This document shows positions 6,851 through 45,649 of a stretch of DNA of 51,608 bases, piece by piece. A program made the position numbers and the translations under genes. The stretch lies in IMG/VR virus record IMGVR_UViG_3300020215_000010; one strand, given 5' to 3'. The stretch comes from a virus. The notes under the pieces were generated by a model. It made no database searches, was not told the origin of the DNA, and saw nothing but the letters and a program-made list of their open reading frames with translations. How positions within the stretch are numbered: the first letter of the stretch is position 1; every line of letters begins with the position of its first letter.

Positions 6851-6929
6851 TCTACCCCCTCACTTACCAGCCCCAATACGCAACAGGCGAGAGGGTCGGC
6901 AGCAACTACAGGATCGTGGATGCGGAGCA

Positions 6930-8509: not shown

Positions 8510-8511
8510 CC

Positions 8512-8967: not shown

Positions 8968-8969
8968 CG

Positions 8970-29676: not shown

Positions 29677-29688
29677 TGTCGTTACTCC

Positions 29689-30024
29689 TTAGCGAACGAT
29701 AAAGCTGTTCTCGATCTCCATGTCCCCGATGCCGGGGTCGAAGAGATGCGTGGCGGGGCCGGTGCCGGTTCGTATGGTGGTATTGCCGATGAATAGCGGC
29801 TGGACGAGATCGGGCTCCTCCACCAGGACATCGGGAAAGACATTCCGCAGGGGCTTCGGGTCTTTGCGCGCCCGAATGAACTCCTGCGGATGCCGCGTCT
29901 CGGTATTGGTCCAGTGGCGCCAGGTGCCGTTCCAGATTTTCACCATCTCGTCGTCGTAGTGAACCAGTCCCGATTCGCTATCGACCATGAGATGGCGGCC
30001 GGGCCGCCATGTGTTGCGTATCAC
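29689..30024 (-). CDS. hypothetical virion-module protein
   Basis: GTGA-coupled GTG 30024. Confidence 0.45.
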   Translation of the reverse strand: MIRNTWRPGRHLMVDSESGLVHYDDEMVKIWNGTWRHWTNTETRHPQEFIRARKDPKPLRNVFPDVLVEEPDLVQPLFIGNTTIRTGTGPATHLFDPGIGDMEIENSFIVR

Positions 30025-30362
30025 GTACCGGCCTGCGTCACGCGGAAGCTGAGATTGGACGAGGCCGAAGCGCTGACCACCTGGACCCGGATGGCTCTCA
30101 TGGGGGTCTGTGTATTGCCGGCGACGCTGGTGGCCGCCGAGGCGGTGATGTCGAAAGTGACGGCGCTGGTGATGGCGGGGTCGAGGATGTTGTCGAGCGT
30201 TCCCTGGACCTTGAAGTTGATCTGCCCGCTGGCCGACTTCTTGCCCACGTAAGCGACGCGGAAATCGGACAGATGGATGTCCAGGGGAATCCACGGGAGA
30301 GAGGTGACGGGGGTGGCGGCTTGCGCCGACACCGCCACGTCCTGCTTTGCTTCCACAGGCAT
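30021..30362 (-). CDS. hypothetical virion-module protein (beta-rich)
   Basis: 113-aa ORF. Confidence 0.5.
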   Translation of the reverse strand: MPVEAKQDVAVSAQAATPVTSLPWIPLDIHLSDFRVAYVGKKSASGQINFKVQGTLDNILDPAITSAVTFDITASAATSVAGNTQTPMRAIRVQVVSASASSNLSFRVTQAGT

Positions 30363-30371
30363 AGCGCTAGC

Positions 30372-30935
30372 TCACTGTTTGCGGATGTACTTGATGCCGA
30401 TGAACCCGGACGTACCGGAGGCAATGGCACCAGAGACCGCCGTGGTATGGACGAGGAACTTCGAGTTGACGCCCGAGACGTTCGACCACGCCGAGGTCTG
30501 GGACAGGGTGTTGCGGTCGTAGTAGCCCTGGGTGCTGACGTTGGTCAGGGCCAGCAACCGCCCATCGTGGGCGGAGGTGCCGACCAGGATGTGGCAGGTT
30601 GATTGTGCTGAACCGCCGGGCGGGGTCTGGACAAAGGCCATGCAGCCGATGATGTCCGAACCCTCCGGCACTTCCGCCGTGACCTTGGTGTTGTTGGCCG
30701 GGATGGTGACGCGCTTGACGCACAAGACCTCGCTAAGCGTGGCCGCGGCGTCGGCACCGGCCTGGATGCGTCCCTTGAACGCAACCGAGCCGCTGACCTC
30801 TACCGTGTTGGCGACAAGCACGCCGCCGACGTTGAGGCCCTGGGCGAAAGAGGCCGAGCCGGAGGCGTCGAACGACACGACGGTGGTTTCCGTCTGGTGC
30901 CGCTTGATGTTGAAAGGAGCTGCGTGTGTGGTCAT
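30372..30935 (-). CDS. decoration/fibre-like protein, paralog of the 28900..29676 C-domain
   Basis: Shared blocks VTIPANNTKV, (V/L)GTSAHD, VS(T/A)QGYY, VHTTA.SGAIAS. Confidence 0.6.
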   Translation of the reverse strand: MTTHAAPFNIKRHQTETTVVSFDASGSASFAQGLNVGGVLVANTVEVSGSVAFKGRIQAGADAAATLSEVLCVKRVTIPANNTKVTAEVPEGSDIIGCMAFVQTPPGGSAQSTCHILVGTSAHDGRLLALTNVSTQGYYDRNTLSQTSAWSNVSGVNSKFLVHTTAVSGAIASGTSGFIGIKYIRKQ

Positions 30936-34700: not shown

Positions 34701-34708
34701 GGGGCGAA

Positions 34709-34882
34709 ATGAAACCGTTTTTGGCCGCTATGTTTCTTGTCGCTGCGGCGCTGCCGGCGCTCGCTCAAACCCTGGCTTGCGGGATTCCCCCGCTCGCGCC
34801 GCTCGGCTGCATCACCGGCCGACCCGTCTGTGTGTGTGATGCCGCCGGTAATTGCGGTTGGGTTTTTGTCGGCTGCTTCTAG
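34709..34882 (+). CDS. secreted Cys-rich peptide (57-aa precursor)
   Basis: Signal MKPFLAAMFLVAAALPALA; 6 Cys in the 38-aa mature part; GGGGGCGAA upstream. Confidence 0.5.
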   Translation: MKPFLAAMFLVAAALPALAQTLACGIPPLAPLGCITGRPVCVCDAAGNCGWVFVGCF

Positions 34883-36195
34883 GAGCTGAGTATCGCTTCC
34901 AACAGCGCCCGCGTCTGGTTCGGGGCGGCAATGCCCCGCGAGCCCAGATAGCCGAGTTCCGTACCCAGCAGGTTGGCAAAGTCCGGCATCTGGCCGGCGT
35001 CTGAGATCAGCCCGCGCTGGGTCAGGTTCTTCCAGTAATCGAATGCTTCGTCGGTGGCCCACTTGCCGCCCGTGCCCTGTGTGGCGAAGGTGGCGATCTT
35101 GGCGCGGCGCTGGAGCGGATCGTCGGACTCGAAGTCGAGGAACGACGGCGCATCCATCGCCGCGGGGCGGCTGAGGCTGGTCGGCGCGGCAACATTGCTC
35201 GGCTTAACGAAGGGGGAACCAACGCCGCCCTCGCTGCCGCCAGTATCGCCGCCGGGCGCGGGATCGGCCTTGCCGGTTCGCGCGCTGTCCCGTTCCATTG
35301 TCGCGTCCAGTAGCGAGACAAGTCCGTTGATTGCCGTGCCGGGCCCAAGGCCCAATACAGAGTTGACCACGGCCTGCTGCGACATCATACCGGGGTTTTG
35401 CGGGAAACCCGCCTTCTCGGCGGCTTTCTCCATGACGCTGCGAAACCCGCCGACCGGTGCTTGGCCCGGAGCCTGACCCGAACCGCCGCCGGTTCCGCCA
35501 GTAGCTCCGCCCGGACCCGGGCCGCCGACGCTGCCGGCCTGCCCGCCCTGGTGGCCGGGGGCGCCACCCGGATTGGGACCACCAATTGCGCCTTCGCCAA
35601 ATCCGCCCATGCCGTGAGGATCGCTGACATTGCCGCCGAGCCCTCGCCCGCCGGCACCCGTGTTGCCGCCCTGTGTGCCGGCGCCGTCCGGGCTGTCTTG
35701 GCTGTTGTCGTTGGAGGTGCTGTCCGTTGTGCCGCCGCCGCCCATGCCGCTGGAATCCTGCCCGCCCTGTCCGCCGGGACCACCGGGGCCGTCGCTCCAG
35801 AACTCCAGCAATCCGGTCTGCGGGTTGATCGAGCCGCCGTCCGTGTTCTGGTGAAGCATCTGCGCTTCTTGCGGATTGATGTGCGCCAGCACGGTATCGC
35901 CCATGCGGCCCTGCTGCTGCAGGGCAAACGCCATCCGCTTCAGTTCGTCCTGATACCCGCTGCCCATGCCGGGCATCGGACCCATGCCGGCGGGGTTGCC
36001 TCCCAATGCACGCAGGAAGGCCGCCGCCGTCGCATCGCTGGGCGCGGAACCAACCGCCTGACGCGCCATCTCCGCGCCTCGGCCGCTGACCTTCCCCGCG
36101 TTGGGATCGCGGTACCGGCCCATGCCCATCGTGCGCGCCATCTCCGGGATCATCCGGGAGCGTGACGAGCCGTAATTCGCCGCCTGGGTATGCAT
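34879..36195 (-). CDS. Gly-rich virion-associated protein
   Basis: 438 aa; GDTVLAHINPQEAQML...GSINPQTGLLEF motif, then a low-complexity Gly region of about 150 aa. Confidence 0.55.
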   Translation of the reverse strand: MHTQAANYGSSRSRMIPEMARTMGMGRYRDPNAGKVSGRGAEMARQAVGSAPSDATAAAFLRALGGNPAGMGPMPGMGSGYQDELKRMAFALQQQGRMGDTVLAHINPQEAQMLHQNTDGGSINPQTGLLEFWSDGPGGPGGQGGQDSSGMGGGGTTDSTSNDNSQDSPDGAGTQGGNTGAGGRGLGGNVSDPHGMGGFGEGAIGGPNPGGAPGHQGGQAGSVGGPGPGGATGGTGGGSGQAPGQAPVGGFRSVMEKAAEKAGFPQNPGMMSQQAVVNSVLGLGPGTAINGLVSLLDATMERDSARTGKADPAPGGDTGGSEGGVGSPFVKPSNVAAPTSLSRPAAMDAPSFLDFESDDPLQRRAKIATFATQGTGGKWATDEAFDYWKNLTQRGLISDAGQMPDFANLLGTELGYLGSRGIAAPNQTRALLEAILSS

Positions 36196-36197
36196 CG

Positions 36198-36404
36198 CTA
36201 TTCGTCCTTCGGTAACTCGTTGCTAAGCTGGAGGGGCAGCTCCCTGAGAAAGTCCGCCACTTCCCGCCATCCCTGGACCTTGCTCAGCCTGTCCTGCGTA
36301 GCTGCCGTCTTCCATGCCTGCTCCGGGAACCTCCGGTCCAGGGCGGCCAGCACCCACCGGGTCGTCGGCTCCTGGAGCCAGTCCTTGAGCGTTTGCCTGT
36401 CCAT
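36198..36404 (-). CDS. hypothetical protein (68 aa) nested over the portal 3' tail
   Basis: GC3 very high in this frame and about half in the portal frame over the same bases. Confidence 0.55.
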   Translation of the reverse strand: MDRQTLKDWLQEPTTRWVLAALDRRFPEQAWKTAATQDRLSKVQGWREVADFLRELPLQLSNELPKDE

Positions 36405-38331
36405 TCATCTGCATCCCTTGGTTCATCACCCCCGACATCATCACCGCATGGGCCTTGACGTGCTCCATCAGCAGCGAGCGGCCGAGCGAGGACAGCGCCG
36501 ATACCGGGTTGTTCAACTCCGCCATGTGAAGTTGGAGGTGCATCTGGTGGTCCTGGTCCGGGAAGGCCATCGGCATCATCGGCGTCTGCTGGAGCGCCAG
36601 TAGATTTTCCATCCCCGGATCGTCGATCCGCATCATCATGGTATTGCCCGGGTTGGGCAGGATTTCGTCGATGTTCTCCGACTGCATCGCTTCCAGGTAA
36701 CGGCGCGAGGCGTTGTAGAGGTGCTGGGGCGAGTTCAGGACCAGCGGGTTGGTTGACAGGAACTGCCACTCCGCATTTGCTTTTGTAAGCCGCTGCTGCT
36801 CCGTCGCCATCTTGGGGTCGGCAACCGGAAGGATCTGAAGGTCGGGCGCGTAGTCCTCTCTCGCGACGGTGAACTGCTTGAGTTCCCCGGCGACATCGAG
36901 GACCGCGAAGTATTCCTTCGGGTCGAGGAATTTGTGGTTGAGGCGGTAGAGCTTTGAAAGCTCGTTCGACCACGCCTCGTTGATCCGCTCGTAGACCGAG
37001 GAGAAGACCTGTAGCGACTGCTCGATAAGAGCCAGCAAGGCGGTAGGCTGAACAACCTTGTCGGTCTGCCCCGTGATCGCCTCGGTTACCGTTGCCAATC
37101 GGTCGGAGCGGGCCGCGAGCAATTCGATGGCCTGGAGCATCGAGACCTGGGGGCCGGGATACTTGGGGACCCAGATGCCCTTTTGCAAATCTTCCACAGA
37201 GCCGGGGACCTTGACGAACTGGCCCAGCTTCATCTGGATTTCCCGGCCTTCGATGCCCCCAAGCTGCTGGGACATGAATCCGGAATTGTTGCCGACATTG
37301 GCCAGCGTGGCCGCGTCGATGAACTGGCGGAGAAGCTTGTTCACGCTCGCGTTGGGCTGGGAGATCAGATGCCCCAGTCCAAGGCCATAGAACCCGTCCG
37401 GGTTCTCCATATAGGGGTAGTGGGTGAAGTACTCGACTGGCTCCTTGTCCGCCGTGGGATTACCCAGCTCATCCGTATCGTAACGGACGACAATGCGGAG
37501 CACCTTCCGGGTCGCGGCGTCAACCGTGACGACGTAGGGCTCCTCTATTCCATCGTCGTCCAGATCGAGCAGCCGGTGCTGCTCCAGCAGGACCACGGGC
37601 TGATAGACGATCATCCCGGGCTCGGTCAGGCCATGCGACTGGTCGTGCGCCCGGTCGATGTTGTTCTTGGCCTCATCCCATACAGCGGGAGTGCCTTCGT
37701 CGATGAAGACGCCCTTCTCCTTGAGGATGCGCGTCTTGTTGACCGACATACGGATGATGTGCGTCTTGCGCTCTATGTCCTCCAATTCACGGGGACCCAC
37801 CCCGTAGGAAACCGTGAGGTCGATGGCGCGGACGTTATCGACGATGTTCCGCTTGCGGGCCGGGCAGTAGTACGACTTGGTGAACACCGAGCCGTGGAGG
37901 GGAACGCCGAGCAGAAGGCGGTCCTTGCCCCGCTTGTAGAGCTTGTCCTTGACGGTGCACTGCCAGGCCATATGCGCGCCCACGCGCTTGGCCCGCTCAA
38001 TCGAATGGGAGTCGTCCTTGCCAACCGGGATGGCCTTGATGAAGTTCCGGCTGGGGAACATGGCCTTGTAGGCTCTGGCTGCAAACTGGGTGCAGCCCTC
38101 GGCCAGCAGCGGTAATGATTCGCTCGAAGAGCCTTCCCACGGGGGGTTCTTCGGCTTGTCGTCCTGGTAATACATCTTGAGCCAGAAAGCGTGCTTCTCG
38201 ATCCATTGCTTTCTTGACTCCTCGTCGTGCCGCCACTCCTCGTAGACCCGGTTGCCGATCTCGGTCAGTTCTTTCTCGTCGAGCTTTGCCGCGATATTCC
38301 GTGTTTCTGGGTGCAGGAATTCGTCGCTCAT
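36223..38331 (-). CDS. portal protein
   Basis: 702 aa; PPWEGSSSESLPLLAEGCTQFAARAYKAMFP resembles the podovirus portal N-region; position upstream of scaffold and capsid. Confidence 0.7.
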   Translation of the reverse strand: MSDEFLHPETRNIAAKLDEKELTEIGNRVYEEWRHDEESRKQWIEKHAFWLKMYYQDDKPKNPPWEGSSSESLPLLAEGCTQFAARAYKAMFPSRNFIKAIPVGKDDSHSIERAKRVGAHMAWQCTVKDKLYKRGKDRLLLGVPLHGSVFTKSYYCPARKRNIVDNVRAIDLTVSYGVGPRELEDIERKTHIIRMSVNKTRILKEKGVFIDEGTPAVWDEAKNNIDRAHDQSHGLTEPGMIVYQPVVLLEQHRLLDLDDDGIEEPYVVTVDAATRKVLRIVVRYDTDELGNPTADKEPVEYFTHYPYMENPDGFYGLGLGHLISQPNASVNKLLRQFIDAATLANVGNNSGFMSQQLGGIEGREIQMKLGQFVKVPGSVEDLQKGIWVPKYPGPQVSMLQAIELLAARSDRLATVTEAITGQTDKVVQPTALLALIEQSLQVFSSVYERINEAWSNELSKLYRLNHKFLDPKEYFAVLDVAGELKQFTVAREDYAPDLQILPVADPKMATEQQRLTKANAEWQFLSTNPLVLNSPQHLYNASRRYLEAMQSENIDEILPNPGNTMMMRIDDPGMENLLALQQTPMMPMAFPDQDHQMHLQLHMAELNNPVSALSSLGRSLLMEHVKAHAVMMSGVMNQGMQMNGQANAQGLAPGADDPVGAGRPGPEVPGAGMEDGSYAGQAEQGPGMAGSGGLSQGAAPPA

Positions 38332-38855
38332 TTACGCGGCTGCGCTAGGTAATGGCGCATGGCTTCGAGCAGATATGTCTGCTTGTCCGTGTACGTCCCG
38401 GACTTGCGCCACTCGTCCCTCTCATCGGGCGCGAGGTAGCCTCTGATGTATGCGTCAAGCCATGACCTATCCATCCAGTCATCGTAGGAACGGGTTTCCT
38501 TGCCGCTGCTGTGAAGCTGGTTGTATTTGCGCCTGTCGAATTCGCGCTGCTCTGGCGTAAGAGAGCCCCGGAACTGTTCTCGAAAATCCCTGAACTTGGG
38601 ATCGACCTGCGGCATGTAGTGCAGCATGTCGCCAAAAACCGCGCGCTGGAGCGCGTCGCCCGTTAGGTTCTTGTCGTAAACTTCGATGGTGGGTCGGCCG
38701 GGGTACGGATTTGTCGGCTCGTCCGGGTTGAAAAATTCAAGGCTGCCGCCGTATTGCGACACATCACCGCGACGAGCGGCCCAGTTATGCCCAGAGAGGG
38801 CGGGGTACTGGTTCAGAATATTCGAGATGACTGGGGCGAACTCGTCCTCAGACAA
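38328..38855 (-). CDS. hypothetical protein upstream of portal
   Basis: 175-aa ORF, ATGA-coupled. Confidence 0.5.
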   Translation of the reverse strand: MSEDEFAPVISNILNQYPALSGHNWAARRGDVSQYGGSLEFFNPDEPTNPYPGRPTIEVYDKNLTGDALQRAVFGDMLHYMPQVDPKFRDFREQFRGSLTPEQREFDRRKYNQLHSSGKETRSYDDWMDRSWLDAYIRGYLAPDERDEWRKSGTYTDKQTYLLEAMRHYLAQPRK

Positions 38856-40401
38856 CTACGTCGCTCATCTCGGCGCGTCTGCGAACACGGGAATTCCAGA
38901 TATGCGGCACCATGCCGGGGCCGTACATCTCGACATCGATCATATAAGGCATGTCGAGGACCCGGGCGATGTCCTGGCACTGGGCGATCTTTTCATGGTC
39001 GGTGACGAATTCCTTGCCGTCGATGGTGACCTTGACGAATTTCGGCTGGCCGCGCTTGTCGAGCGTCGAGAAGTCGATCTTGTCCGTGTCGGGATAGGAG
39101 CAGTCGTAGCCGTAGCCCTTGAACTTCCTGAAGCCGATGGCGTGCAGGATCGAGATGCCGCGCATGGCCGCCGAGCAGCCGCCGGGAATGAGAAAATGCC
39201 CCTCGCCCAATCGCTGGGCGACGACATCCTGCTCTCCCGCTCCGACCTGGGCATGGTAGCCATAGACCCTCGCTTTCTTCTCGATGAGGCGGTCAATCGT
39301 GGTTGGATGGACCATTGAGGCGACGAGGTAGCGCACCTCGGGATGGGGGTTCTCGATAAAGTCCTGGACGTGCGAGCGGGGATCGAGGAGCACGCAGGCC
39401 CACGGGATTATTCCCTGGGCAATCAGGTCGTCATGCGCCGACTTGACGCAGACGACGTAGTGGTTGGGCTTCTGCTGAAGCTCCTTGATGGTCTCGTAGT
39501 AGTCCTTGAGGCTGGGGCCGCCGGAGCAGAACACGGCGATGCCGTCGTGAATCTTGCACTCGACCAGCCAGTCCTTGAGCAACGTGGCCGAATAATGGAC
39601 GTTGGCCCGGATGTTGACCTCGGGGACGCAGTTCTTGGTCTTGACCATGATCTCCATCCCTCCAGCGGAGGTATGGGCGATGGCCCCGATGCCCTTCATG
39701 CCGTCGGGGCGCTTCTGCTTCATCTTCTTCTTGGCGACCGGCCCCTTGTCGTGGCGCATCCTTGTGCCGAGGATGGACTGGTTGAATACCTCCAGCCCGG
39801 ATAGGTCGGCGCTGATGTTGTGCCACCAGCCTTCACGAAGCTGGTCGAACACGTAGGAGTCGTGCCACTCCTTCATGTTGAAGATTTCGCCCGTGACATA
39901 GGCGTTCCTGAACTTCGCCAGGAACTCGTCCGCCCGGTATTGAGTATTGAACCCGACGAAGCCGCACTCCGAATGCGGCCAGTCCTTGCGACCGAGGTAG
40001 GAGCCCGCGAATCCCTCGGGGCAGACCGCTTCGACGAATTCCTCGTCCACCTTGGCGTGGGTCTCTATGTCGGCATCGAGCCAGATCCACCACTGAGCCG
40101 CTTTGCTGGCGATCCGCTTGGGATCGGTCAGGGCAAAGACCTTGTGGCTGAAGCGCACGGCCTGGAAGCGGTAGTCCGACGAGGTGTCGAACTTCTCGTC
40201 CATGAACTTCTGCCGGTCCGCGTCCTGGTCGAGATCGACATAGGTAATGCGCGGGGACTGGATATCCGGCTTCGTCCCCTCGTAGTAGACCCACAGGGGG
40301 ATCGAGACGGGCCAGTGCTTCAAGTAGGATTCGATGAAGCGTCTGCCGTAAAGCCCGTAGTGCTTCCGGCCGAACGTGGTGACGCAGGCAAAGCGTGTCA
40401 T
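38848..40401 (-). CDS. two-domain glycosyltransferase: GT-A-like N-domain plus MptE/Maf (DUF115)-like C-domain
   Basis: WLDADIE (DxD); AVFCSGGPSLKD, VVCVKSAHDDLIAQGIIPWACVLLDPR, GGCSAAMRGISILHAIGF..GYGYDCSY. Confidence 0.6.
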   Translation of the reverse strand: MTRFACVTTFGRKHYGLYGRRFIESYLKHWPVSIPLWVYYEGTKPDIQSPRITYVDLDQDADRQKFMDEKFDTSSDYRFQAVRFSHKVFALTDPKRIASKAAQWWIWLDADIETHAKVDEEFVEAVCPEGFAGSYLGRKDWPHSECGFVGFNTQYRADEFLAKFRNAYVTGEIFNMKEWHDSYVFDQLREGWWHNISADLSGLEVFNQSILGTRMRHDKGPVAKKKMKQKRPDGMKGIGAIAHTSAGGMEIMVKTKNCVPEVNIRANVHYSATLLKDWLVECKIHDGIAVFCSGGPSLKDYYETIKELQQKPNHYVVCVKSAHDDLIAQGIIPWACVLLDPRSHVQDFIENPHPEVRYLVASMVHPTTIDRLIEKKARVYGYHAQVGAGEQDVVAQRLGEGHFLIPGGCSAAMRGISILHAIGFRKFKGYGYDCSYPDTDKIDFSTLDKRGQPKFVKVTIDGKEFVTDHEKIAQCQDIARVLDMPYMIDVEMYGPGMVPHIWNSRVRRRAEMSDVVV

Positions 40402-41852
40402 TTCAGCCCAAATAGTGGGGAGTCAACCTCCCCGATGATGTTGATGTATTTCCGGTAGCCATCGCCCTTCAGTCGAGGAGCGACCCCGTGCACCGAGTCC
40501 GGCGTGTTGAGGAAGAACAGAACGGTTCCGGGAAGGCACTCAATCGTCTCGACGATCTCGACGCTTCCGGGCTCCGCTTCCGCTTTCTTGACCATGCCCT
40601 CGCGGCCGACAAACGAGCGCGGACCCTTCCAGCGATAGATTTCAAGCTCGCCGCCGCCGAGATAAACCAGGCCCGCATAAAGTTCCTTCGGGTCATCGAT
40701 GTGGGGTCCTCTCACCGATGAGGTTTCCTCGACCGGTGTATTCACCGCGAACTGGCAGTCGAGGCGGAACGGTTGCTTATCCCTGCCCCTAACCCCGGCG
40801 GTGAGCGGGAGGGACCCCAGTTGCGGATAGAGACGACGGATCTCGGGGGCGAAGATGAGGAACAGCTCGTTGAGGAACTGCTCCCCGGTGTGAAGCTCGA
40901 AAAACTCGCGCCAGAAGGCGGAGGTGGATTCGTCGCCGAGGACTTCGCGGGCCGAGCGCTGGTAGAGGGTGTTCTGTTTTGCCGGTCGGCCGAGGATGAT
41001 GTCCGCAGGATCGGGGAAATTCTTTTCAAGCTGTTCCAGGTAAACCGGGTCAAGCCGGCCAGCAATGTAAGGGAATGGCTTGACACGGTCCCTCCTTTCA
41101 ACAAGGGCGCCAAGAACGGATTTCAGCCGAACGCCTGGGTTATGCCGTAGCGGTTCAGCAGGTTTTGCTCCCACGTCAGCCGGGGCGTGGTGGCGGTACT
41201 TGCCCTGGACCGGGACCTTGAATCCTTCGTCGCTCGTTTTTCTGAGGGCGCAGACGAGCATGATGTTCTTGTCGGTCGGTTCCGGTCTTTTGATCTCTTT
41301 CGGGTCGATGTTTTCGATGAGGACATTGCCATCCCGATCCCCGGCGTACATCTCAAGGATTTCGTAGCCGTTGGCGTGAGCAAGATCGAAGAACAGGACG
41401 GGGTTGAAGTTGTAGAAACCGTGGTTCCGCCAGTTGATCCACGGCAGCACGTGCAGGATCACCCCCCTTCGTTTGCAGAGGTTGTGACAGGTCTCGAAGA
41501 TGGCCGCCTGGTTGAAGATGTGCTCGCCGGTTCCGTTGTTGGTGACGAGGTCGGCCGGCTCTAGATGCGGGTACGGTGTCGTCGCAGCGCTGGTGGCAAT
41601 TTCGATCTCCTTCGGGATACTGATAACCGTTCGATTCAAATCGAGGCTAACCGTCCCCTTCCCGTCGAAGTCGATGGACTCGTAGCGGGTAAACCCGAGG
41701 AAATCGTAGTAGTCGGGCACGTCCTTGAACGTGCGGTCCTTCAACTGGAAGGTCAGGGTCTGCGAGCCAAGCTCGATCACCGAGAGGTCCTGGCCCTCGA
41801 TGTGCTGGCGGACTTTCATCACCGCCTTGCCGGCCATCGGATTGAATGTCAT
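40398..41852 (-). CDS. class-I SAM methyltransferase fused to a P4H-like 2OG-Fe(II) oxygenase
   Basis: VIELGSQ, ADLVTNNGTGEHIFNQ...GVILHVLP; C-domain PHIDDP (HxD), YAGLVYLGGGELEIY, DSVHGV. Confidence 0.55.
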   Translation of the reverse strand: MTFNPMAGKAVMKVRQHIEGQDLSVIELGSQTLTFQLKDRTFKDVPDYYDFLGFTRYESIDFDGKGTVSLDLNRTVISIPKEIEIATSAATTPYPHLEPADLVTNNGTGEHIFNQAAIFETCHNLCKRRGVILHVLPWINWRNHGFYNFNPVLFFDLAHANGYEILEMYAGDRDGNVLIENIDPKEIKRPEPTDKNIMLVCALRKTSDEGFKVPVQGKYRHHAPADVGAKPAEPLRHNPGVRLKSVLGALVERRDRVKPFPYIAGRLDPVYLEQLEKNFPDPADIILGRPAKQNTLYQRSAREVLGDESTSAFWREFFELHTGEQFLNELFLIFAPEIRRLYPQLGSLPLTAGVRGRDKQPFRLDCQFAVNTPVEETSSVRGPHIDDPKELYAGLVYLGGGELEIYRWKGPRSFVGREGMVKKAEAEPGSVEIVETIECLPGTVLFFLNTPDSVHGVAPRLKGDGYRKYINIIGEVDSPLFGLK

Positions 41853-42457
41853 TCAAACACCATCACGCAGTCGCGGTTCACCTTGTCGGCGCGTCTCCAG
41901 CCCCAGGACTGGAGGATCAGCACGCCATCGTTGACGTTCGTCGCGTTCTCCTCGATCAGGATCACGGGGCGGTGCTTCAGCAATGTCTGCCGTCCGCCCT
42001 CAAGTACGTGTTCCTCGAAGCCCTGAACGTCGATCTTCACGAAGTCCGGGGCGAGGTCGTAGGTGTCGAGTGGCATGACGGGGACTAACTCGACGTTGTC
42101 GTATTTCATTTCTTTCGTTTCCCAAGCGCCGGAGTTTTCCGCCTTGGGCGTGTCCAGTGCTCCCCAGCACTGCCGTGAGCCGAGCGCGACGTTGTGCAGG
42201 ACGGCGTTATCCGGCCGGTTCTTCTTCAGGCAGGCGAAGTTCTCGGGTTGAGGCTCAAAAGCCACCACCTTCTCGAATCTCTTGCCCAGCGCGCGGGTGA
42301 AGAACCCGACATGCGCGCCGATGTCGATGGCTAGCCCGAAGCGCTTGACGTGCCTTAGAGCCGCTTCAAGCTGTTTAGACTGATAGGTGCCGGCGAGGGC
42401 GAAGGGGGCGAAGTGCGTGTCATCGTCGGGAAGCCAGAACTGGCCGGCCTGTTTCAC
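41849..42457 (-). CDS. FkbM-family methyltransferase
   Basis: AIDIGAHVGFFT and FVKIDVQGFEEHVLEG. Confidence 0.65.
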   Translation of the reverse strand: MKQAGQFWLPDDDTHFAPFALAGTYQSKQLEAALRHVKRFGLAIDIGAHVGFFTRALGKRFEKVVAFEPQPENFACLKKNRPDNAVLHNVALGSRQCWGALDTPKAENSGAWETKEMKYDNVELVPVMPLDTYDLAPDFVKIDVQGFEEHVLEGGRQTLLKHRPVILIEENATNVNDGVLILQSWGWRRADKVNRDCVMVFE

Positions 42458-43212
42458 GCGCTTTCCTTCAGCCTGTCCCAGATTGAGGGTCTGGGGTTTC
42501 TCATCCGGGAGCGTTCAAGCTCCCACAGCCCGCCGTGCTCGATAAACCACGGGGCCTTTTCCGAGTAGTGGACCGCCTTGGGTGTTACATCCGGTGACAC
42601 ACCCTGTATCCAGTTCCACTCGGGAGGTAGCTCTCCGATATCCTCGTCCTTCAGCCAGGAGAAGGAATGCAACCACGAGCCGGGTTTGTGGTTCACCACG
42701 TCAACCGTCAGATCGGCGTTGAGCGGGTGCTGGAGGTTGAACAGCACGAGGCTCGACCAGTTTTTGCGGTGGTATGAAGTCTGGGCTACCCCGTCCATCT
42801 TTACAGAGTCAGTAGGGGTGTGACGGTGCTTGACACACATCACCGCAAATCTTTCGTCCGCGAGAGCGAACAATTCCTTGATATTGGCCTGAAACAGAAA
42901 GTCGCAGTCCATGAACGCCGCCCATTTGGCAGAGGGCACGTCGCGCTTCGCCAGCAGGTAAGTCAGCCAGCGAGAATGGGAGAACTCGGTCGAGAATGGC
43001 TTTCCATCACGCTCGTCAACGTATTGACCTGTCTCCCCAACTCTCCAGGGTCGGTCGAACAGGCCCTCCGCTCTCAAGGTGCGGTGCTTCAGGGGCCGGA
43101 TATAGGTTGAGGCTTTGGTGCGGTCGATGATCGAGAAGCGGCAGACCTCGTAGGCGTCCTGTTCGCGACTGTCCCACCCGATATAGATCGGCAAGACCTC
43201 AGAATCGGTCAT
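42454..43212 (-). CDS. GT8-like (GT-A fold) glycosyltransferase
   Basis: PIYIGWDSRE start, FMDCDFLF DxD, KNWSSLVLFN. Confidence 0.55.
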   Translation of the reverse strand: MTDSEVLPIYIGWDSREQDAYEVCRFSIIDRTKASTYIRPLKHRTLRAEGLFDRPWRVGETGQYVDERDGKPFSTEFSHSRWLTYLLAKRDVPSAKWAAFMDCDFLFQANIKELFALADERFAVMCVKHRHTPTDSVKMDGVAQTSYHRKNWSSLVLFNLQHPLNADLTVDVVNHKPGSWLHSFSWLKDEDIGELPPEWNWIQGVSPDVTPKAVHYSEKAPWFIEHGGLWELERSRMRNPRPSIWDRLKESA

Positions 43213-43957
43213 TCAGTATTCTCCACGCCGTCCCGTTCCTCATCTCATCGAGGCGAAACTGGTGATAAGCGAGCGCGTGGCACCAGCGCTCGCGCGGCGG
43301 CCACCAGGGTTTTTCGATGTCCTCGAACACCCACGAAACCGTCTCGCACGCCGACTCGCCCAGCACCACGGCCGGAACCCCCGCCAGCAGCGCATCGACG
43401 GCGCTGTTCGATGAATGCGTGACGACGCACCAGCAATCGCGCAACGCGTCCGAAATCTCCCCCTCTCCCTTGGGCTTGACCACGATAGGCCGGGAGGTGT
43501 TGCGGCTAATCTCCGTCGTCACTGTCCGCAACCACTGATCCGCATTGATGCCGTAGAACCCGGCGATAGCCCCGGTCAACGGGATGACCAGCACGTGCCG
43601 GCCGTCCTTGCGCCACGGGCTCAAGCCGAGGTTCAGGTCTTTCCAGCGGTTCTCGGGGTAGACGTATTCCCCCTGGTCAGGGAGGTCGGCCTGCCGGCCG
43701 TTCTTCGTCACCCGGTAGAAGCCTTCATAATGTCCGGGCTTGAAATACCCGTGGTCGATGTAGAAGAAATCCCGCTGCACCCACTCGCATTGCTTCAGGA
43801 TTTCCCCCGTTCCCCGCAGGATGCCGTACATGGCGGCGGGTCCCTCTAGGAGCTGCGTAGGAGGGACGATCCTGCCCTTACACCCTTCGGCAAACGCACT
43901 CATGATCACCTTGGAGTGCTGGTGGTCGGTGGTGTAGCAGCAGGGTTGGCTAGTCAT
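43199..43957 (-). CDS. GT-B-like / capsule-synthesis-like glycosyltransferase
   Basis: HVLVIPLTG...VVTHSSNSAVDALLAGVPAVVLGES Rossmann-type C-terminal block; ATG 43957. Confidence 0.45.
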   Translation of the reverse strand: MTSQPCCYTTDHQHSKVIMSAFAEGCKGRIVPPTQLLEGPAAMYGILRGTGEILKQCEWVQRDFFYIDHGYFKPGHYEGFYRVTKNGRQADLPDQGEYVYPENRWKDLNLGLSPWRKDGRHVLVIPLTGAIAGFYGINADQWLRTVTTEISRNTSRPIVVKPKGEGEISDALRDCWCVVTHSSNSAVDALLAGVPAVVLGESACETVSWVFEDIEKPWWPPRERWCHALAYHQFRLDEMRNGTAWRILNDRF

Positions 43958-44150
43958 GCAACACCGGGATATCGAACTCCACTCGCGGCCATAGCGTGAA
44001 CGAACGGCCGTCGCCATCCGGCGTGGCGAAGTATTCCAGTGCCAGGCGTTGCGCTTCCCATTCGTGCGGCGCGGCGACGACGTAGGAGACGCGCTTTCTG
44101 GTCCCCGTCCCGGAGACAAAGGTGACGGGGCAGCGCCAGGCGGTTGTCAT
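43950..44150 (-). CDS. hypothetical protein (66 aa)
   Basis: ATGA overlap with the terL stop. Confidence 0.45.
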   Translation of the reverse strand: MTTAWRCPVTFVSGTGTRKRVSYVVAAPHEWEAQRLALEYFATPDGDGRSFTLWPRVEFDIPVLHD

Positions 44151-45649
44151 GACAGGGCGTAGGGGTCCTCGGTCTTCCCCCTGGCGCGCTTCATGTCTTC
44201 ATGGTTCTCGGCAAGCCAGCGGTCTTCTTCGGTCGTCACGAAAGGCCTCGATCTCAAGGCATAGGCCACTTCGTCATAAACGTGATTCTCATCCGAGGGC
44301 TTATCCCCCGGCCCCTTCTCGCCATCGATCTCGTCGAGCAATAGGGTGGGGCAGGTTCTCCAGAACTGGGTACAATCAGCCGTGACAAAGAACATCGGGT
44401 CGTTGAAGGATTCGCCTGTTTCGAGATAGCGGTCGTTGCCCGCTAACCTTGAGATCACCTCGTTGTAGTTCCGCTTGCGGTCCTTCTTGGCTTTTCGCAT
44501 CACCAGGCGCGGATCGGTCTGGAACAGGGTTTCTGCGACACATGTACCCCCCCGGTCGGCCCACATCTCCGTGTCCCCGACCCGGTAGTCCATGCGCTCG
44601 CCCATGCGCTCCAGCTCACGCTTGATGATGCCCTTCCCCACTTCCTGGGGACTCAGCCTCAAGCCTTCGTTCGGCCGGCCGTTCCAGCCGTACCATTCGG
44701 CGTAGCGGATCAGGGCTCCGGCCGGTAACCAGCGGCTCGGCCAATTTCCTTTTGCCGCAAGCTCAACCCCCTCGCTGACGCAGTACCAGCCAATCGAGAA
44801 GGGGCGGACGACGCCCCAGTCGATGACCATGAAGCGTGTCCAGTGCTTCGGAGGGGTAAAAGCCCTCAACATATGCCTGTCGCGGGACAGGTTGAACAAA
44901 GCCTGCCCAACCACCGCGTCCCAGTCGCCCTCTCGTAGCTGCTTCGCCAATTCCGGCGGCAACCCCGAGAACTGACCGGCATACCCCTTATCCAGATAAC
45001 TGTTGTCCTGCATCCGGGCGGGGATATAGACCGTCGCCCAACCCTTCGATTCAGGATCCGAGGGGTCCGACATCGTCTTGTCCCAGAACAGCGTCTCCGC
45101 CGGGGCAGGGTCGATCATGGTTTTTTTCAGGAACGAATGACCGGGGCCGCCGGGGTTCGAGCACAGCACCACTCTTGGCAGCAGATGCTTGCAGGCTTCC
45201 GCGGGTTTGTATCTTCCCAACCGGACGCGGGTTCTCAGATAGTTGATCTGGAACGCCGTTAAGTGTGCCGCCTCATCGATCCCGAGCCAGTGAATCTCGG
45301 CGCCTTGGTACCGGGTGACATCGTCCTCTTTTTCGCAGTACGCGAGGTTGATCCCGGCCCCGTTGTAGAACTCGAACCGCTTCTTGGTGTCGTTGTAGGA
45401 CCCCAATTCAGTGGGGATCTCCGCCTTGATCTTGCGGATGTGGTTCGCCTCGAGCTCCGGCAGGGTCCGCCTGAATATGAACGCATCCAGCCCGGGGTTG
45501 CTGAGGCAGAAGCCTATCGCGTCCCACCTCAGGCTGTGCGACTTCCCGCCTCCCGCAGCACCCCCATAGAAAATCTGCCGGGCCAGGGACGCGTGTAGCA
45601 GCCTCTGCCGGCTCTGCGGCTCATAGTCGAGCCGTATCGTTTGCTGCAA
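44147..45649 (-). CDS. terL: terminase large subunit
   Basis: Walker A GGAAGGGKS, IDEAAH Walker B-like; 500 aa; TTG start per track. Confidence 0.85.
   Translation of the reverse strand: MQQTIRLDYEPQSRQRLLHASLARQIFYGGAAGGGKSHSLRWDAIGFCLSNPGLDAFIFRRTLPELEANHIRKIKAEIPTELGSYNDTKKRFEFYNGAGINLAYCEKEDDVTRYQGAEIHWLGIDEAAHLTAFQINYLRTRVRLGRYKPAEACKHLLPRVVLCSNPGGPGHSFLKKTMIDPAPAETLFWDKTMSDPSDPESKGWATVYIPARMQDNSYLDKGYAGQFSGLPPELAKQLREGDWDAVVGQALFNLSRDRHMLRAFTPPKHWTRFMVIDWGVVRPFSIGWYCVSEGVELAAKGNWPSRWLPAGALIRYAEWYGWNGRPNEGLRLSPQEVGKGIIKRELERMGERMDYRVGDTEMWADRGGTCVAETLFQTDPRLVMRKAKKDRKRNYNEVISRLAGNDRYLETGESFNDPMFFVTADCTQFWRTCPTLLLDEIDGEKGPGDKPSDENHVYDEVAYALRSRPFVTTEEDRWLAENHEDMKRARGKTEDPYALS

What the first reader, a model, noticed from the sequence alone, without database searches (positions are those of the whole stretch)
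38848..43957. Five-gene sugar/methyl/hydroxyl-transfer cassette wedged between terminase and portal genes
In this kind of morphogenesis operon terL is normally followed closely by the portal gene. Here five co-directional enzyme genes with 4-14 nt overlaps sit between them. They are a GT-B-like transferase, a GT8-like GT-A (FMDCDFLF), an FkbM methyltransferase, a SAM-methyltransferase fused to a 2OG-Fe(II) oxygenase, and a GT-A-like domain fused to an MptE/Maf (DUF115)-like domain. I saw no nucleotide-sugar synthesis genes, flippase or membrane proteins. The cassette would therefore draw on host sugar pools and act on a cytoplasmic substrate late in infection. My preferred reading is multi-step hydroxylation, glycosylation and methylation of virion proteins. 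The Ser/Thr/Ala-rich fibre/decoration paralogs at 28900..30935 are obvious candidate substrates. The alternative is DNA hypermodification. I cannot match this enzyme combination in a head operon to any described phage system.
Basis: partly seen in the sequence, partly recalled or inferred. Interest (0 to 1): 0.85.

Follow-up and report, generated by a model that had tools for sequence, protein, structure and literature searches.

The report
Phage sugar-building island between terminase and portal
An uncultured phage carries, between its DNA-packaging and portal genes, a set of sugar-transferring, methylating and hydroxylating enzymes that is shared by a large phage lineage and most likely decorates a phage component, probably a virion protein, with a small methylated sugar chain.

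Summary
On the minus strand, terL (44147-45649) and the SU10-type portal (36223-38331) are separated by seven co-directional genes with 4-14 nt overlaps.

- **Fold calls.** Four are well supported: a GT8-like GT-A, an FkbM methyltransferase, a class-I methyltransferase fused to a 2OG-Fe(II) oxygenase with an intact HxD…H…R triad, and a retaining GT-A fused to a PF01973 domain whose best structural match is the flagellin glycosyltransferase Maf. The "GT-B-like" call for the first gene is only weakly supported.
- **Lineage trait.** P1, P2 and P5 sit at the terL-portal junction in dozens of IMG/VR contigs. P3 and P4 are accessory and are replaced elsewhere by sugar-nucleotide enzymes and other methyltransferases. 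Cassette-less relatives have terL directly abutting the portal.
- **Function.** This is a glycan assembly and tailoring island. The acceptor is unresolved. A virion protein is my best guess. DNA glycosylation and host-envelope remodelling remain open.
- **Precedent.** Mycobacteriophage Corndog has a methyltransferase plus glycosyltransferases in its head operon, so the concept is not new, but this enzyme set is.
- **Test systems.** Related modules in cultured Caulobacter and Pelagibacter phages make it testable.

The parts
44147..45649 (-). Large terminase (terL); upstream boundary of the cassette
   Evidence: PF03237 Terminase_6N at 27.5 bits against a cut-off of 22, and phrog_979 at E 2e-35.
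43950..44150 (-). orf66, a small ORF of unknown function that overlaps terL by 4 nt and P1 by 8 nt
   Evidence: Called as a gene on the source contig. No family hit.
43199..43957 (-). P1, a core gene: a putative glycosyltransferase related to DUF6716 (weak GT-B C-terminal-domain signature 'VTHSSNSAVDALLAGVPAVV')
   Evidence: Sub-threshold hits only: DUF6716 E 0.002, TIGR04396 E 0.013, GT9 structure 3tov E 0.68. The family is large, with 2849 clusters at 50% identity, and includes fusions to FkbM, Methyltransf_23 and GT4 domains. Present in 36 of 39 relatives.
42454..43212 (-). P2, a core gene: a GT8-like retaining GT-A glycosyltransferase with a DxD motif (D102, D104) and invariant H215
   Evidence: phrog_28018 at E 5e-59. 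The family profile hits the GT8 structures WbbM (E 9e-4), GlyE, the Skp1 alpha-galactosyltransferase and glycogenin. Present in 37 of 39 relatives.
41849..42457 (-). P3, an accessory gene: an FkbM-family SAM methyltransferase, probably a sugar O-methyltransferase
   Evidence: PF05050 at 62.4 bits against a cut-off of 22.7; TIGR01444 at 91.7 against 37.7; phrog_8156. Present in 12 of 39 relatives.
41178..41852 (-). P4 N-terminal domain (about residues 1-225): class-I SAM methyltransferase fold
   Evidence: AlphaFold model with pLDDT 88.7. Foldseek hits SAMTOR at about E 5e-5. PF13489 is recorded for several homologs. Stand-alone 282-aa homologs occur in marine bacterial assemblies.
40401..41117 (-). 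P4 C-terminal domain (about residues 246-484): 2OG-Fe(II) oxygenase of the prolyl-hydroxylase / PolD-PasI type
   Evidence: H384, D386, H455 and R467 are invariant in 35 homologs. Foldseek hits PolD 9blq (E 6.8e-8), PasI, P3H1, OGFOD1 and MINA53, with no TET/JBP entry in the top 50. The PF13640 hit is weak, E 0.028. Present in 8 of 39 relatives.
39715..40401 (-). P5 N-terminal domain (about residues 1-229): retaining GT-A glycosyltransferase with DxD (D109, D111)
   Evidence: Model with pLDDT 89.8. Foldseek hits the GT6 enzymes alpha-1,3-galactosyltransferase, GTA/GTB and BoGT6a, and the GT8 enzymes LARGE1 and GlyE, at about E 1e-6. Homologous stand-alone genes occur in Pelagibacter phage Mosig and podovirus MW202713.
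38851..39654 (-). P5 C-terminal domain (about residues 250-517): PF01973 MptE-like / Maf_flag10 domain, a putative CMP-ulosonic-acid (Kdo or nonulosonate) transferase
   Evidence: PF01973 at 59.9 bits against a cut-off of 34.6. The top Foldseek PDB hit is Maf, 5mu5, at E 1.1e-7. A weak PseD hit. Invariant motifs include GGPSL, LLDPR, GYH and GYD. P5 was the search query that defined the cassette-bearing loci, and the portal directly abuts it in 37 of 39 relatives.
38328..38855 (-). orf175, unknown function; an insertion between P5 and the portal that was seen only on this phage's own contigs
   Evidence: No family hits. Absent from the relative with 84% identical P5. In 37 of 39 relatives the portal directly follows P5.
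36223..38331 (-). Portal protein; downstream boundary of the cassette
   Evidence: PF23899 SU10_portal at 40 bits against a cut-off of 30, and phrog_1216.
34879..36195 (-). g438, a Gly/Ser/Thr-rich low-complexity protein just after the portal; it co-occurs with the cassette and may be linked to it or be a clade marker
   Evidence: The family is present in 46 of 49 cassette-bearing loci and in 0 of 26 cassette-less loci that share the same head module. Phylogeny confounds this comparison.
28900..30935 (-).
   Evidence: 49% identity over 136 aa. 21-22% Ser+Thr. No PHROG hit. The family is also present in 9 cassette-less loci.

Best explanation
The cassette is a phage-encoded, cytoplasmic island for building and tailoring a glycan. 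It is transcribed with the late head operon.

Core enzymes. The conserved core is three proteins carrying four transferase domains. P1 is a DUF6716-like putative glycosyltransferase. P2 is a GT8-like retaining GT-A. P5 is a retaining GT-A fused to a Maf/CstII-like PF01973 domain. Together they would assemble a short oligosaccharide from nucleotide sugars.

Donors. This phage encodes no sugar-nucleotide enzymes, so the donors would come from host pools. By analogy with Maf, the PF01973 domain would use a CMP-activated ulosonic acid such as Kdo or a pseudaminic/legionaminic-type sugar. UDP-hexoses would serve the GT-A domains.

Accessory enzymes. P3 (an FkbM methyltransferase) and P4 (a methyltransferase fused to a 2OG-Fe(II) oxygenase) would then O-methylate and hydroxylate the glycan. 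In other members of the lineage they are swapped for other methyltransferases, an SDR epimerase/dehydratase, a nucleotidyltransferase, a radical-SAM enzyme or an FAD oxidoreductase, so the glycan differs from phage to phage.

Acceptor. The most likely acceptor is Ser/Thr of a phage late protein, that is, a virion component modified in the cytoplasm before or during assembly. This is what happens in mycobacteriophage Corndog and in chloroviruses.

What is shown and what is inferred. Shown: the folds, the intact catalytic motifs, the conservation, the core-plus-accessory architecture, the operon position, and the absence of membrane segments and of DNA-base-activating enzymes. Inferred: the donors, the order of steps, and the identity of the acceptor.
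For: - Folds and motifs.
- All genes overlap by 4-14 nt between terL and the portal. The consensus scan of the region found only weak terminator-like matches.
- P1-P5 have no transmembrane-like segment.
- Purifying selection, with dN/dS of 0.10-0.25.
- Core versus accessory genes: P1 in 36, P2 in 37, P3 in 12 and P4 in 8 of 39 relatives. P5 directly abuts the portal in 37 of 39.
- In relatives the variable slot between P2 and P5 holds an SDR NAD-dependent epimerase/dehydratase (26 ORFs), an RfaE-domain-II/TagD-like nucleotidyltransferase (23), Methyltransf_24 (28), radical SAM/SPASM (4), GT9 (4) and a DAO oxidoreductase (3). This is the signature of a glycan locus.
- P1-family fusions to FkbM, Methyltransf_23 and GT4 domains.
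- A bacterial island holds FkbM, Methyltransf_23, P4N-like, P4C-like and P1-like genes side by side.
- Maf-type PF01973 enzymes O-glycosylate Ser/Thr of flagellin with nonulosonic acids or Kdo in the cytoplasm (PMC11339370; bioRxiv 10.1101/2020.06.03.131540).
- Several GT8 structural matches are protein-glycan enzymes: GlyE, the Skp1 alpha-galactosyltransferase and glycogenin.
- The window holds no C5-methyltransferase, TET/JBP or thymidylate-synthase-like enzyme and no DNA polymerase.
- The same module (P1 + P2 with MptE-like, GT9 or FkbM genes) sits directly after the tail genes in Caulobacter phage CcrColossus.
Against: - No acceptor was identified.
- The major capsid protein has no cassette-specific insertion or Ser/Thr-rich extension of the kind I recall for glycosylated mycobacteriophage capsids (the mycobacteriophage detail is from memory, because Freeman et al. 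2023 was not readable).
- The P1-P2(-P5N/MptE) module occurs in three unrelated phage groups with different virion proteins. That fits a generic acceptor such as DNA or a host glycoconjugate at least as well as a specific virion protein.
- The GT8, GT9-like and ulosonic-acid-transferase folds are also those of LPS-core enzymes and of the phage DNA glycosyltransferases described by Pyle et al. Fold therefore does not discriminate between acceptors.
- The PF01973 fold is shared with CstII-type sialyltransferases, which act on glycans, not proteins.
- The P1 fold assignment is weak.
Confidence: 0.45

Rival explanations
1. Post-replicative DNA hypermodification. The cassette would attach a methylated oligosaccharide to a base in phage DNA just before packaging, which would explain its place next to the terminase. 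The P4 methyltransferase-oxygenase fusion would play the role of the methyltransferase plus 5-methylpyrimidine dioxygenase pair that creates the hydroxymethyl handle.
For: - Pyle et al. (bioRxiv 10.1101/2023.12.21.572611) show phage gene clusters that put mono- to trisaccharides, including heptose, Kdo-like and uronic sugars, on 5hmC. Those clusters use GT-A and GT-B primary transferases and GT8-like secondary transferases, carry cytidylyltransferases and epimerases, and are sometimes next to terminase or structural genes.
- P4 fuses a methyltransferase fold to a 2OG oxygenase.
- The module is portable between unrelated phages.
- It lies next to terL.
Against: - P4 is absent from 31 of 39 relatives that keep P1, P2 and P5, so it cannot supply an obligatory handle.
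- The P4 N-domain has no invariant cysteine, so it cannot be a C5-cytosine methyltransferase. Its structural matches are SAMTOR-like, not DNA methyltransferases.
- The P4 C-domain matches PolD/PasI, prolyl hydroxylases and ribosomal oxygenases. No TET/JBP entry is in the top 50.
- The window has no C5-methyltransferase, TET/JBP or thymidylate-synthase homolog and no DNA polymerase. The phage looks temperate, with an integrase, ERF, YqaJ and SSB.
- P1-P5 are neutral to acidic, pI 5.9-7.3 (weak evidence).
- Cellular homologs of P1, P3 and P4 sit next to McrBC, which restricts modified DNA.
Confidence: 0.17
2. Remodelling of a host glycoconjugate during lytic growth. The enzymes would act at the cytoplasmic face on LPS core or O-antigen precursors, or on a host glycoprotein such as flagellin or pilin. 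This would alter or mask the receptor, giving superinfection exclusion or stopping progeny from being trapped on cell debris.
For: - GT8-like, GT9-like, ulosonic-acid-transferase-like, FkbM/RfbT-like and 2OG-oxygenase enzymes are the toolkit of LPS core and O-antigen synthesis and tailoring. That statement rests on general knowledge of these families; the fold calls are.
- A cellular island carries homologs of P1, P3 and both halves of P4 with no phage context.
- The module is shared by phages of related (alphaproteobacterial) hosts but of unrelated morphology.
- Maf enzymes natively modify flagellin (PMC11339370).
Against: - The cassette lies inside the late head operon, not near the integrase, and it would be silent in a lysogen.
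- Remodelling the envelope minutes before lysis has little obvious payoff.
- The enzymes have no membrane anchor or amphipathic membrane segment.
- It has been kept as a core gene set at one fixed position, abutting the portal, over deep divergence (about 30% identity for P5). That suggests a virion-linked role.
Confidence: 0.18
3. The cassette glycosylates a non-virion target, such as a host cytoplasmic protein or a phage non-structural protein, or it makes a soluble glycoside. Its position in the head operon would then be only a tolerated insertion hot spot.
For: - The terL-portal junction accepts unrelated cargo in a relative: Pelagibacter phage HTVC027P has two unrelated genes there.
- orf175 and orf66 are extra insertions at the same junction.
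- No acceptor could be identified.
Against: P1-P2-…-P5 is strictly conserved at this site across a large lineage and is under purifying selection. There is no precedent for such a target.
Confidence: 0.1

Closest known systems
Virion glycosylation cassette of Cluster O (Corndog) and Cluster F (Che8-type) mycobacteriophages
   Same: An O-methyltransferase plus several glycosyltransferases are embedded in the head-morphogenesis operon. The enzymes are expressed in infected cells but absent from virions (PMC4351075). [quoted passage not shown] 2023). The overall logic is the same: soluble late enzymes working from host sugar pools.
   Different: - In Corndog the genes lie between the portal and the protease, not between terL and the portal.
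- The host is an actinobacterium and the phage is a siphovirus.
- Corndog has no PF01973/Maf-like domain and no 2OG oxygenase.
- tblastn with P1, P2 and P5 finds no mycobacteriophage, so the enzymes are not detectably homologous.
- The capsid protein here has no extra Ser/Thr-rich extension.
Maf (motility-associated factor) flagellin glycosyltransferases, PF01973
   Same: The P5 C-domain passes the PF01973 threshold, and its best structural match is Maf from Magnetospirillum, 5mu5. Maf enzymes work in the cytoplasm and O-link CMP-activated nonulosonic acids or Kdo to Ser/Thr (PMC11339370).
   Different: - P5 lacks the flanking Maf domains and instead carries an N-terminal GT-A domain.
- The PseD model scores 22.6 bits against a cut-off of 670.
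- The window has no flagellin and no nonulosonate synthesis genes.
- Donor and acceptor are untested.
Phage clusters that hypermodify DNA with glycans: methyltransferase + 5mYOX + glycosyltransferases (Pyle et al., bioRxiv 10.1101/2023.12.21.572611)
   Same: These are multi-enzyme phage clusters with GT-A and GT-B transferases and GT8-like secondary transferases, plus sugar-activating enzymes in some members. They use host sugar pools and are sometimes next to terminase or structural genes. They also pair a methyltransferase with a 2OG oxygenase.
   Different: Those clusters are defined by a C5-cytosine methyltransferase plus a TET-like dioxygenase, or by a thymidylate-synthase homolog. None is present here. 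The methyltransferase-oxygenase fusion P4 is accessory in this lineage.
Chlorovirus PBCV-1 capsid glycosylation machinery (A064R and partners)
   Same: A virus-encoded, cytoplasmic and ER-independent set of GT-A transferases plus a sugar methyltransferase builds a methylated glycan on the major capsid protein. The virus also encodes a prolyl 4-hydroxylase. This comparison rests on my own knowledge; PBCV-1 is mentioned as a structural match in Pyle et al..
   Different: It is a eukaryotic giant virus, the glycan is N-linked, and the enzymes are different. No homology was tested here.
Skp1 hydroxyproline glycosylation pathway (Dictyostelium, Toxoplasma)
   Same: It is a cytoplasmic sequence in which a 2OG-Fe(II) prolyl hydroxylase acts first and soluble GT-A/GT8-type transferases follow. 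The Skp1 alpha-galactosyltransferase structure is among the P2 profile matches.
   Different: In that pathway hydroxylation is the obligatory first step. Here the oxygenase is dispensable in most of the lineage. The similarity is at fold level only.
P1-P2 modules in cultured phages: Caulobacter phage CcrColossus gp126-gp131 (also CcrPW, CcrSC, CcrBL9 and Bertelyvirus) and Pelagibacter phage Mosig genes 00185-00191
   Same: These are true homologs. P1 and P2 are adjacent, at 26-32% and 36-45% identity respectively. In CcrColossus they sit with an MptE-like gene (PF01973 at 31.8 bits) and a GT9 gene. In Mosig they sit with a P5N-like GT-A and two FkbM methyltransferases.
   Different: The genomic positions differ: after the tail genes in CcrColossus, and next to nucleotide-metabolism genes in Mosig. 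The domains are not fused, there is no P4, and the phage morphotypes are unrelated. The function of these modules is also unstudied; no paper was found.

Membership tests
Maf / PF01973 (MptE-like, Maf_flag10) glycosyltransferases | PF01973 domain above Pfam's gathering score | tested here: met
   P5 residues 287-438 score 59.9 bits against a cut-off of 34.6.
Maf / PF01973 (MptE-like, Maf_flag10) glycosyltransferases | Fold of the central Maf domain (CstII-like) | tested here: met
   The top Foldseek PDB hit is 5mu5, Maf, at E 1.1e-7 over 283 columns. The model has pLDDT 89.8.
Maf / PF01973 (MptE-like, Maf_flag10) glycosyltransferases | Three-domain Maf architecture and equivalence to PseD/Maf flagellin-modification proteins | tested here: not met
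   The NF050051 PseD model scores 22.6 bits against a cut-off of 670. The N-terminal half of P5 is a GT-A glycosyltransferase, not the Maf N-domain.
Maf / PF01973 (MptE-like, Maf_flag10) glycosyltransferases | Genomic association with flagellin and nonulosonic-acid biosynthesis genes | tested here: not met
   None is present in the window.
Maf / PF01973 (MptE-like, Maf_flag10) glycosyltransferases | Transfer of a CMP-activated ulosonic acid to Ser/Thr of a protein | not testable with these tools
   This needs an enzyme assay or glycoproteomics.
CAZy GT8-type retaining GT-A (P2) | Pfam PF01501 above threshold | tested here: not met
   12.7 bits against a cut-off of 24.3.
CAZy GT8-type retaining GT-A (P2) | DxD metal/nucleotide-sugar motif, a downstream conserved His, and profile similarity to solved GT8 enzymes | tested here: met
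   D102, D104 and H215 are invariant in 41 orthologs. The profile hits WbbM (E 9e-4), GlyE (E 0.013), the Skp1 alpha-galactosyltransferase and glycogenin.
FkbM methyltransferases (P3) | PF05050 / TIGR01444 above the curated thresholds | tested here: met
   62.4 bits against 22.7, and 91.7 against 37.7.
2OG-Fe(II) oxygenase superfamily (P4 C-domain) | HxD/E…H iron triad, a basic residue that binds 2OG, and the double-stranded beta-helix fold | tested here: met
   H384, D386, H455 and R467 are invariant. Foldseek hits PolD, PasI, P3H1 and OGFOD1 at E 7e-8 to 3e-6. PF13640 itself is sub-threshold, 15.8 bits against 27.
Phage DNA glycan hypermodification clusters (methyltransferase + 5mYOX/ThyS + glycosyltransferase) | A C5-cytosine methyltransferase (catalytic Cys) together with a TET/JBP-type dioxygenase, or a thymidylate-synthase-type hydroxymethylase, near the glycosyltransferases | tested here: not met
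   The window has no such Pfam hit. The P4 N-domain has no invariant Cys. The P4 C-domain's top 50 structural matches contain no TET/JBP entry.
Phage DNA glycan hypermodification clusters (methyltransferase + 5mYOX/ThyS + glycosyltransferase) | Glycosylated nucleosides in phage DNA | not testable with these tools
   This needs LC-MS of nucleosides.
Phage virion-glycosylation cassettes (Corndog/Che8 type) | Methyltransferase and glycosyltransferase genes embedded in the virion structural operon | tested here: met
   Compare PMC4351075.
Phage virion-glycosylation cassettes (Corndog/Che8 type) | Sequence homology of the enzymes to the mycobacteriophage enzymes | tested here: not met
   tblastn with P1, P2 and P5 against 50,697 phage records returns no mycobacteriophage.
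Phage virion-glycosylation cassettes (Corndog/Che8 type) | Glycans demonstrated on capsid or tail proteins | not testable with these tools
   This needs mass spectrometry or glycan staining of virions. The capsid protein shows no cassette-specific extension.
GT-B glycosyltransferases (P1) | Two-Rossmann-domain GT-B fold, or a significant match to a GT-B family | tested here: inconclusive
   Only sub-threshold hits were found: DUF6716 at 17.6 bits against 27, TIGR04396 at E 0.013, and GT9 structure 3tov at E 0.68. hhalign against phage GT9-like proteins was not significant. P1 is only 252 aa, so at most about one and a half Rossmann domains.

The most novel reading that the evidence does not exclude
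A large, so far uncultured lineage of phages, probably of Alphaproteobacteria, together with cultured Caulobacter giant phages and a pelagiphage that share the module, uses a Maf-like PF01973 transferase with GT8-like and DUF6716-like partners to put a sialic-acid-like or Kdo-containing, methylated and phage-variable glycan on its own virion proteins. This would be the first ulosonic-acid O-glycosylation of a bacterial virus particle, and the first virion glycosylation system described for phages of Gram-negative hosts. The exchangeable tailoring slot between P2 and P5 would generate diversity in the surface glycan.
Probability: 0.25. Interest if true: 0.8.

Novelty: new variant of a known kind. 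Interest (0 to 1): 0.6.

Why it matters
As far as I know, glycosylation of phage particles has been shown experimentally only for a few actinobacteriophages, where it changes antibody recognition. If this reading is right, there is a second, unrelated and much more widespread system in phages of Gram-negative bacteria. P5 has 646 homologs at E ≤ 0.001 in the 90%-identity cluster database, P1 has 2849 clusters at 50% identity, and 71 IMG/VR loci carry the cassette.

The island has a fixed genomic address and a swappable tailoring slot, much like an O-antigen locus. That would bear on phage-host recognition, on escape from glycan-blind or glycan-directed defences, and on particle stability. It could also be used to glyco-engineer phages.

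If the acceptor turns out to be DNA instead, the cassette would extend DNA glycan hypermodification to clusters that lack the known methyltransferase/TET entry point. That would be at least as interesting.

Either way, the homologous modules in cultivable Caulobacter phages (the CcrColossus group) and in Pelagibacter phage Mosig make the question directly testable.

Tried and rejected
- **Nucleotide search.** Megablast of the region against deposited phages found nothing.
- **Direct sequence search of solved structures.** P4 and P5 gave nothing useful. Predicted structures and profiles were needed.
- **P1 fold.** The profile against PDB gave only GT9 at E 0.68. hhalign against phage GT9-like proteins was not significant. 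A profile search of the large protein database returned only unnamed family members, a few tagged DUF6716. P1's fold stays unresolved.
- **Prophage and host search.** Searching 185,579 species genomes with the P5 profile gave five hits, all phage-sized MAG contigs and none in an isolate genome. The host remains unknown. Alphaproteobacteria are suggested only by the MAG labels, by a GcrA gene in a relative and by the hosts of phages that share the module.
- **Portal-anchored survey.** It failed because the alignment was too divergent. It was replaced by a capsid-anchored survey.
- **Capsid acceptor signature.** No cassette-specific insertion or extension was found in the capsid protein.
- **g438 against deposited phages.** Only a 50-residue N-terminal motif matches.
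- **HTVC027P junction genes.** The two genes between terL and the portal in Pelagibacter phage HTVC027P have no transferase domains.
- **Rejected: TET-like DNA oxidation by P4.** See the DNA rival.
- **Rejected: lysogenic-conversion O-antigen modification of the Gtr type.** P1-P5 have no membrane segments, and the cassette lies in the late operon.
- **Literature.** Searches for DUF115 or MptE in phages, and for glycosyltransferases of Caulobacter phages, found no relevant study. Freeman et al. 2023 could not be read.

Full report
**1. What is there**

The window is essentially one 51.6-kb phage contig. Identical genes lie on 51,622-bp ENA contigs. It carries:
- an integrase, an ERF recombinase, a YqaJ exonuclease and SSB;
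- a head module of SU10-type portal, GroES, a Mu-gpT-like capsid protein and an SU10-type adaptor.

On the minus strand, terL (44147-45649) and the portal (36223-38331) are separated by seven genes whose ends overlap by 4-14 nt:

| Gene | Coordinates | Length |
|---|---|---|
| orf66 | 43950-44150 | 66 aa |
| P1 | 43199-43957 | 252 aa |
| P2 | 42454-43212 | 252 aa |
| P3 | 41849-42457 | 202 aa |
| P4 | 40398-41852 | 484 aa |
| P5 | 38848-40401 | 517 aa |
| orf175 | 38328-38855 | 175 aa |

The consensus scan of the region found only weak terminator-like matches. The stretch has slightly lower G+C than the rest of the genome, 0.58-0.61 against about 0.63.

**2. What the five proteins are**

- **P3** is a clear FkbM methyltransferase.
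- **P5** was modelled at pLDDT 89.8.
  - Its C-terminal half passes the PF01973 threshold. Its best PDB match is the flagellin glycosyltransferase Maf, 5mu5, at E 1e-7.
  - Its N-terminal half matches retaining GT-A enzymes of families GT6 and GT8 and keeps an invariant DxD motif.
- **P4** was modelled at pLDDT 88.7.
  - Its C-terminal half is a 2OG-Fe(II) oxygenase. The nearest structures are PolD and PasI (sugar-nucleoside tailoring enzymes), prolyl 3-hydroxylase, OGFOD1 and the ribosomal oxygenases. No TET/JBP entry appears in the top 50.
  - H384, D386, H455 and R467 are invariant in 35 homologs.
  - Its N-terminal half has a class-I methyltransferase fold (SAMTOR matches; PF13489 in homologs).
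- **P2** is GT8-like. Its DxD motif and a downstream His are invariant. Its family profile finds WbbM, GlyE, the Skp1 alpha-galactosyltransferase and glycogenin.
- **P1** has only sub-threshold similarity to DUF6716, TIGR04396 and GT9. "GT-B-like" is a reasonable guess, not a result.

None of the five has a transmembrane-like segment. All are under purifying selection against the relative with 84% identical P5, with dN/dS of 0.10-0.25. Those values are broadly similar to terL, the portal and the capsid protein at 0.07-0.10.

**3. It is a lineage trait, with a core and a variable slot**

- P5 has 646 homologs at E ≤ 0.001 in the 90%-identity cluster database, and most of the best 120 are from phage-sized contigs.
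- A pattern scan of IMG/VR gave 71 loci.
- Among 39 loci with at least 5.5 kb upstream of P5, P2 is present in 37, P1 in 36, P3 in 12 and P4 in 8. The portal directly follows P5 in 37.
- The interval between P2 and P5 is variable. In other members it holds:
  - an SDR NAD-dependent epimerase/dehydratase (26 ORFs);
  - a small nucleotidyltransferase closest to RfaE domain II and TagD (23);
  - a Methyltransf_24 enzyme (28), which is sometimes fused to P5;
  - small Methyltransf_23 enzymes;
  - radical SAM/SPASM, GT9 and FAD-oxidoreductase genes.
- Relatives with the same head module but no cassette have terL directly abutting the portal. These are Alcaligenes phage QDWS535, Roseobacter phage CRP-902, Caulobacter phage RW (which has only a tRNA between the two genes) and MW202796.
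- In a capsid-anchored sample, 6 of 31 informative loci carry P5. In 12 of 13 cassette-less loci inspected, a 430-550-aa ORF abuts the portal. Eight of the ten tested are confirmed terminases.

However, the cassette is an old, fixed feature of a large clade, not a recent wedge.

**4. The same module elsewhere**

- P1 and P2 are adjacent in the cultured Caulobacter giant phages (CcrColossus, CcrPW, CcrSC, CcrBL9 and Bertelyvirus) and in Pelagibacter myophage Mosig.
- In CcrColossus they lie just after the tail genes, with an MptE-like gene (PF01973 at 31.8 bits; hhalign to P5 at E 1.3e-3) and a GT9 gene.
- In Mosig they lie with a P5N-like GT-A, two FkbM methyltransferases and a sulfotransferase.
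- A marine bacterial assembly has FkbM, Methyltransf_23, P4N-like, P4C-like and P1-like genes side by side.

These contexts say that the proteins work together on a carbohydrate.

**5. Mechanism**

The best-supported reading is a soluble, late-expressed pathway that assembles and tailors a glycan.
- Four transferase domains (P1, P2, P5N and P5C) build the chain.
- The PF01973 domain would, by analogy with Maf (PMC11339370; bioRxiv 10.1101/2020.06.03.131540), use a CMP-activated ulosonic acid. CMP-Kdo, which Gram-negative hosts need for LPS (general knowledge), would do.
- P3 and P4 methylate and hydroxylate the product.

Because P4 is missing from most of the lineage, hydroxylation of the acceptor cannot be the entry step.

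**6. The acceptor**

The acceptor is not determined.

Evidence for a virion protein:
- the position inside the head operon, abutting the portal;
- the cytoplasmic Maf precedent;
- the protein-glycan GT8 relatives;
- the Corndog precedent (PMC4351075, PMC11600133).

Evidence against DNA:
- there is no C5-methyltransferase, TET/JBP enzyme, thymidylate-synthase homolog or DNA polymerase in the genome;
- P4N has no catalytic cysteine, and P4C is not TET-like;
- P4 is accessory;
- the enzymes are not basic.

Yet Pyle et al. show that the same folds can act on DNA and that such clusters can sit near structural genes. The module's portability between unrelated phages also fits a generic acceptor.

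A host glycoconjugate is a third possibility. My estimates are:
- virion protein, about 0.45;
- host glycoconjugate, about 0.18;
- DNA, about 0.17;
- something else, about 0.1;
- the remaining 0.1 is unassigned.

**7. Candidate acceptors**

They also occur in cassette-less relatives.
- The capsid protein shows no cassette-specific insertion.
- The only structural-region gene that tracks the cassette is g438, the Gly/Ser/Thr/Gln-rich low-complexity protein just after the portal. It is in 46 of 49 cassette-bearing loci and 0 of 26 cassette-less loci.
  - Shared ancestry confounds this comparison.
  - Its N-terminal motif resembles part of an internal "tape-measure" protein of a podophage.
  - It is therefore a lead, not a finding.

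**8. Novelty and verdict**

Putting glycosyl- and methyl-transferases in a phage head operon is a known idea, and so is phage DNA glycosylation. Three things appear undescribed: this enzyme set (a PF01973/Maf-like domain fused to a GT-A, a DUF6716-like partner, a GT8-like partner, and a methyltransferase-oxygenase fusion), its fixed terL-portal address with an exchangeable tailoring slot, and its breadth in uncultured phages. P2's PHROG is "unknown function", and no paper on these modules was found.

I rate it a new variant of a known kind, with interest 0.6.

Noticed in passing
window 34879-36195 (-): g438 is a Gly/Ser/Thr/Gln-rich low-complexity protein encoded just after the portal. Its family (140-490 aa) is present in 46 of 49 cassette-bearing loci and in none of 26 cassette-less loci with the same head module. 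Only its N-terminal motif (about aa 84-133, 'DTVLAHINPQEAQML…GGSINPQTGLLEFW') matches deposited phages, inside a 'tape measure' of podophage DSL-LC04.
   Followed up: partly
window 38328-38855 (-): orf175 has no family hit and sits between P5 and the portal only on this phage's own contigs. The relative with 84% identical P5 and 37 of 39 other relatives have the portal directly after P5. A homolog lies upstream of terL in locus L015 (127-438), so it looks like a small mobile gene.
   Followed up: partly
window 34229-34699 (+) and 34708-34881 (+): Two genes lie on the opposite strand inside the late operon, between g438 and GroES. One is a 156-aa protein with a lipoprotein signal (LGGC lipobox) and an HELVH zincin-like motif. 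The other is a 57-aa signal-peptide protein rich in cysteine. They look like morons, perhaps for exclusion or lysis control.
   Followed up: no
window 33751-34041 (-): A GroES (Cpn10) homolog is part of the head module. It is conserved in 72 of 75 related loci, with or without the cassette, and in the annotated phages QDWS535, HTVC027P, Caulobacter phage RW and MW202796.
   Followed up: no
L012 8525-13063 (GCA_902570155.1) and L013: A marine bacterial assembly holds an FkbM/RfbT-like methyltransferase, a Methyltransf_23 gene, a stand-alone P4N homolog, a stand-alone P4C-like 2OG oxygenase, a P1-like gene and a second 2OG oxygenase in a row. They lie between a type I R-M/McrBC block and purH. 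This may be the cellular source, or a cellular counterpart, of the accessory enzymes.
   Followed up: partly
L002 3549-7680 (Pelagibacter phage HTVC027P gp41-gp42): This related pelagiphage also has cargo between terL and the portal: two large genes of 483 and 892 aa with no transferase domains. The junction therefore tolerates unrelated insertions.
   Followed up: partly
L025 5024-5980, L045, L071 and L072: Four cassette variants carry a radical SAM/SPASM enzyme. That class often matures peptides or proteins, which is a hint towards a protein substrate in those phages.
   Followed up: no
window 13460-14641 (+) and about 6900-9000 (+): An integrase plus ERF, YqaJ and SSB, and no DNA polymerase. 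The phage looks temperate. Even so, a scan of 185,579 species genomes with the P5 profile found only phage-sized MAG contigs and no integrated prophage.
   Followed up: partly
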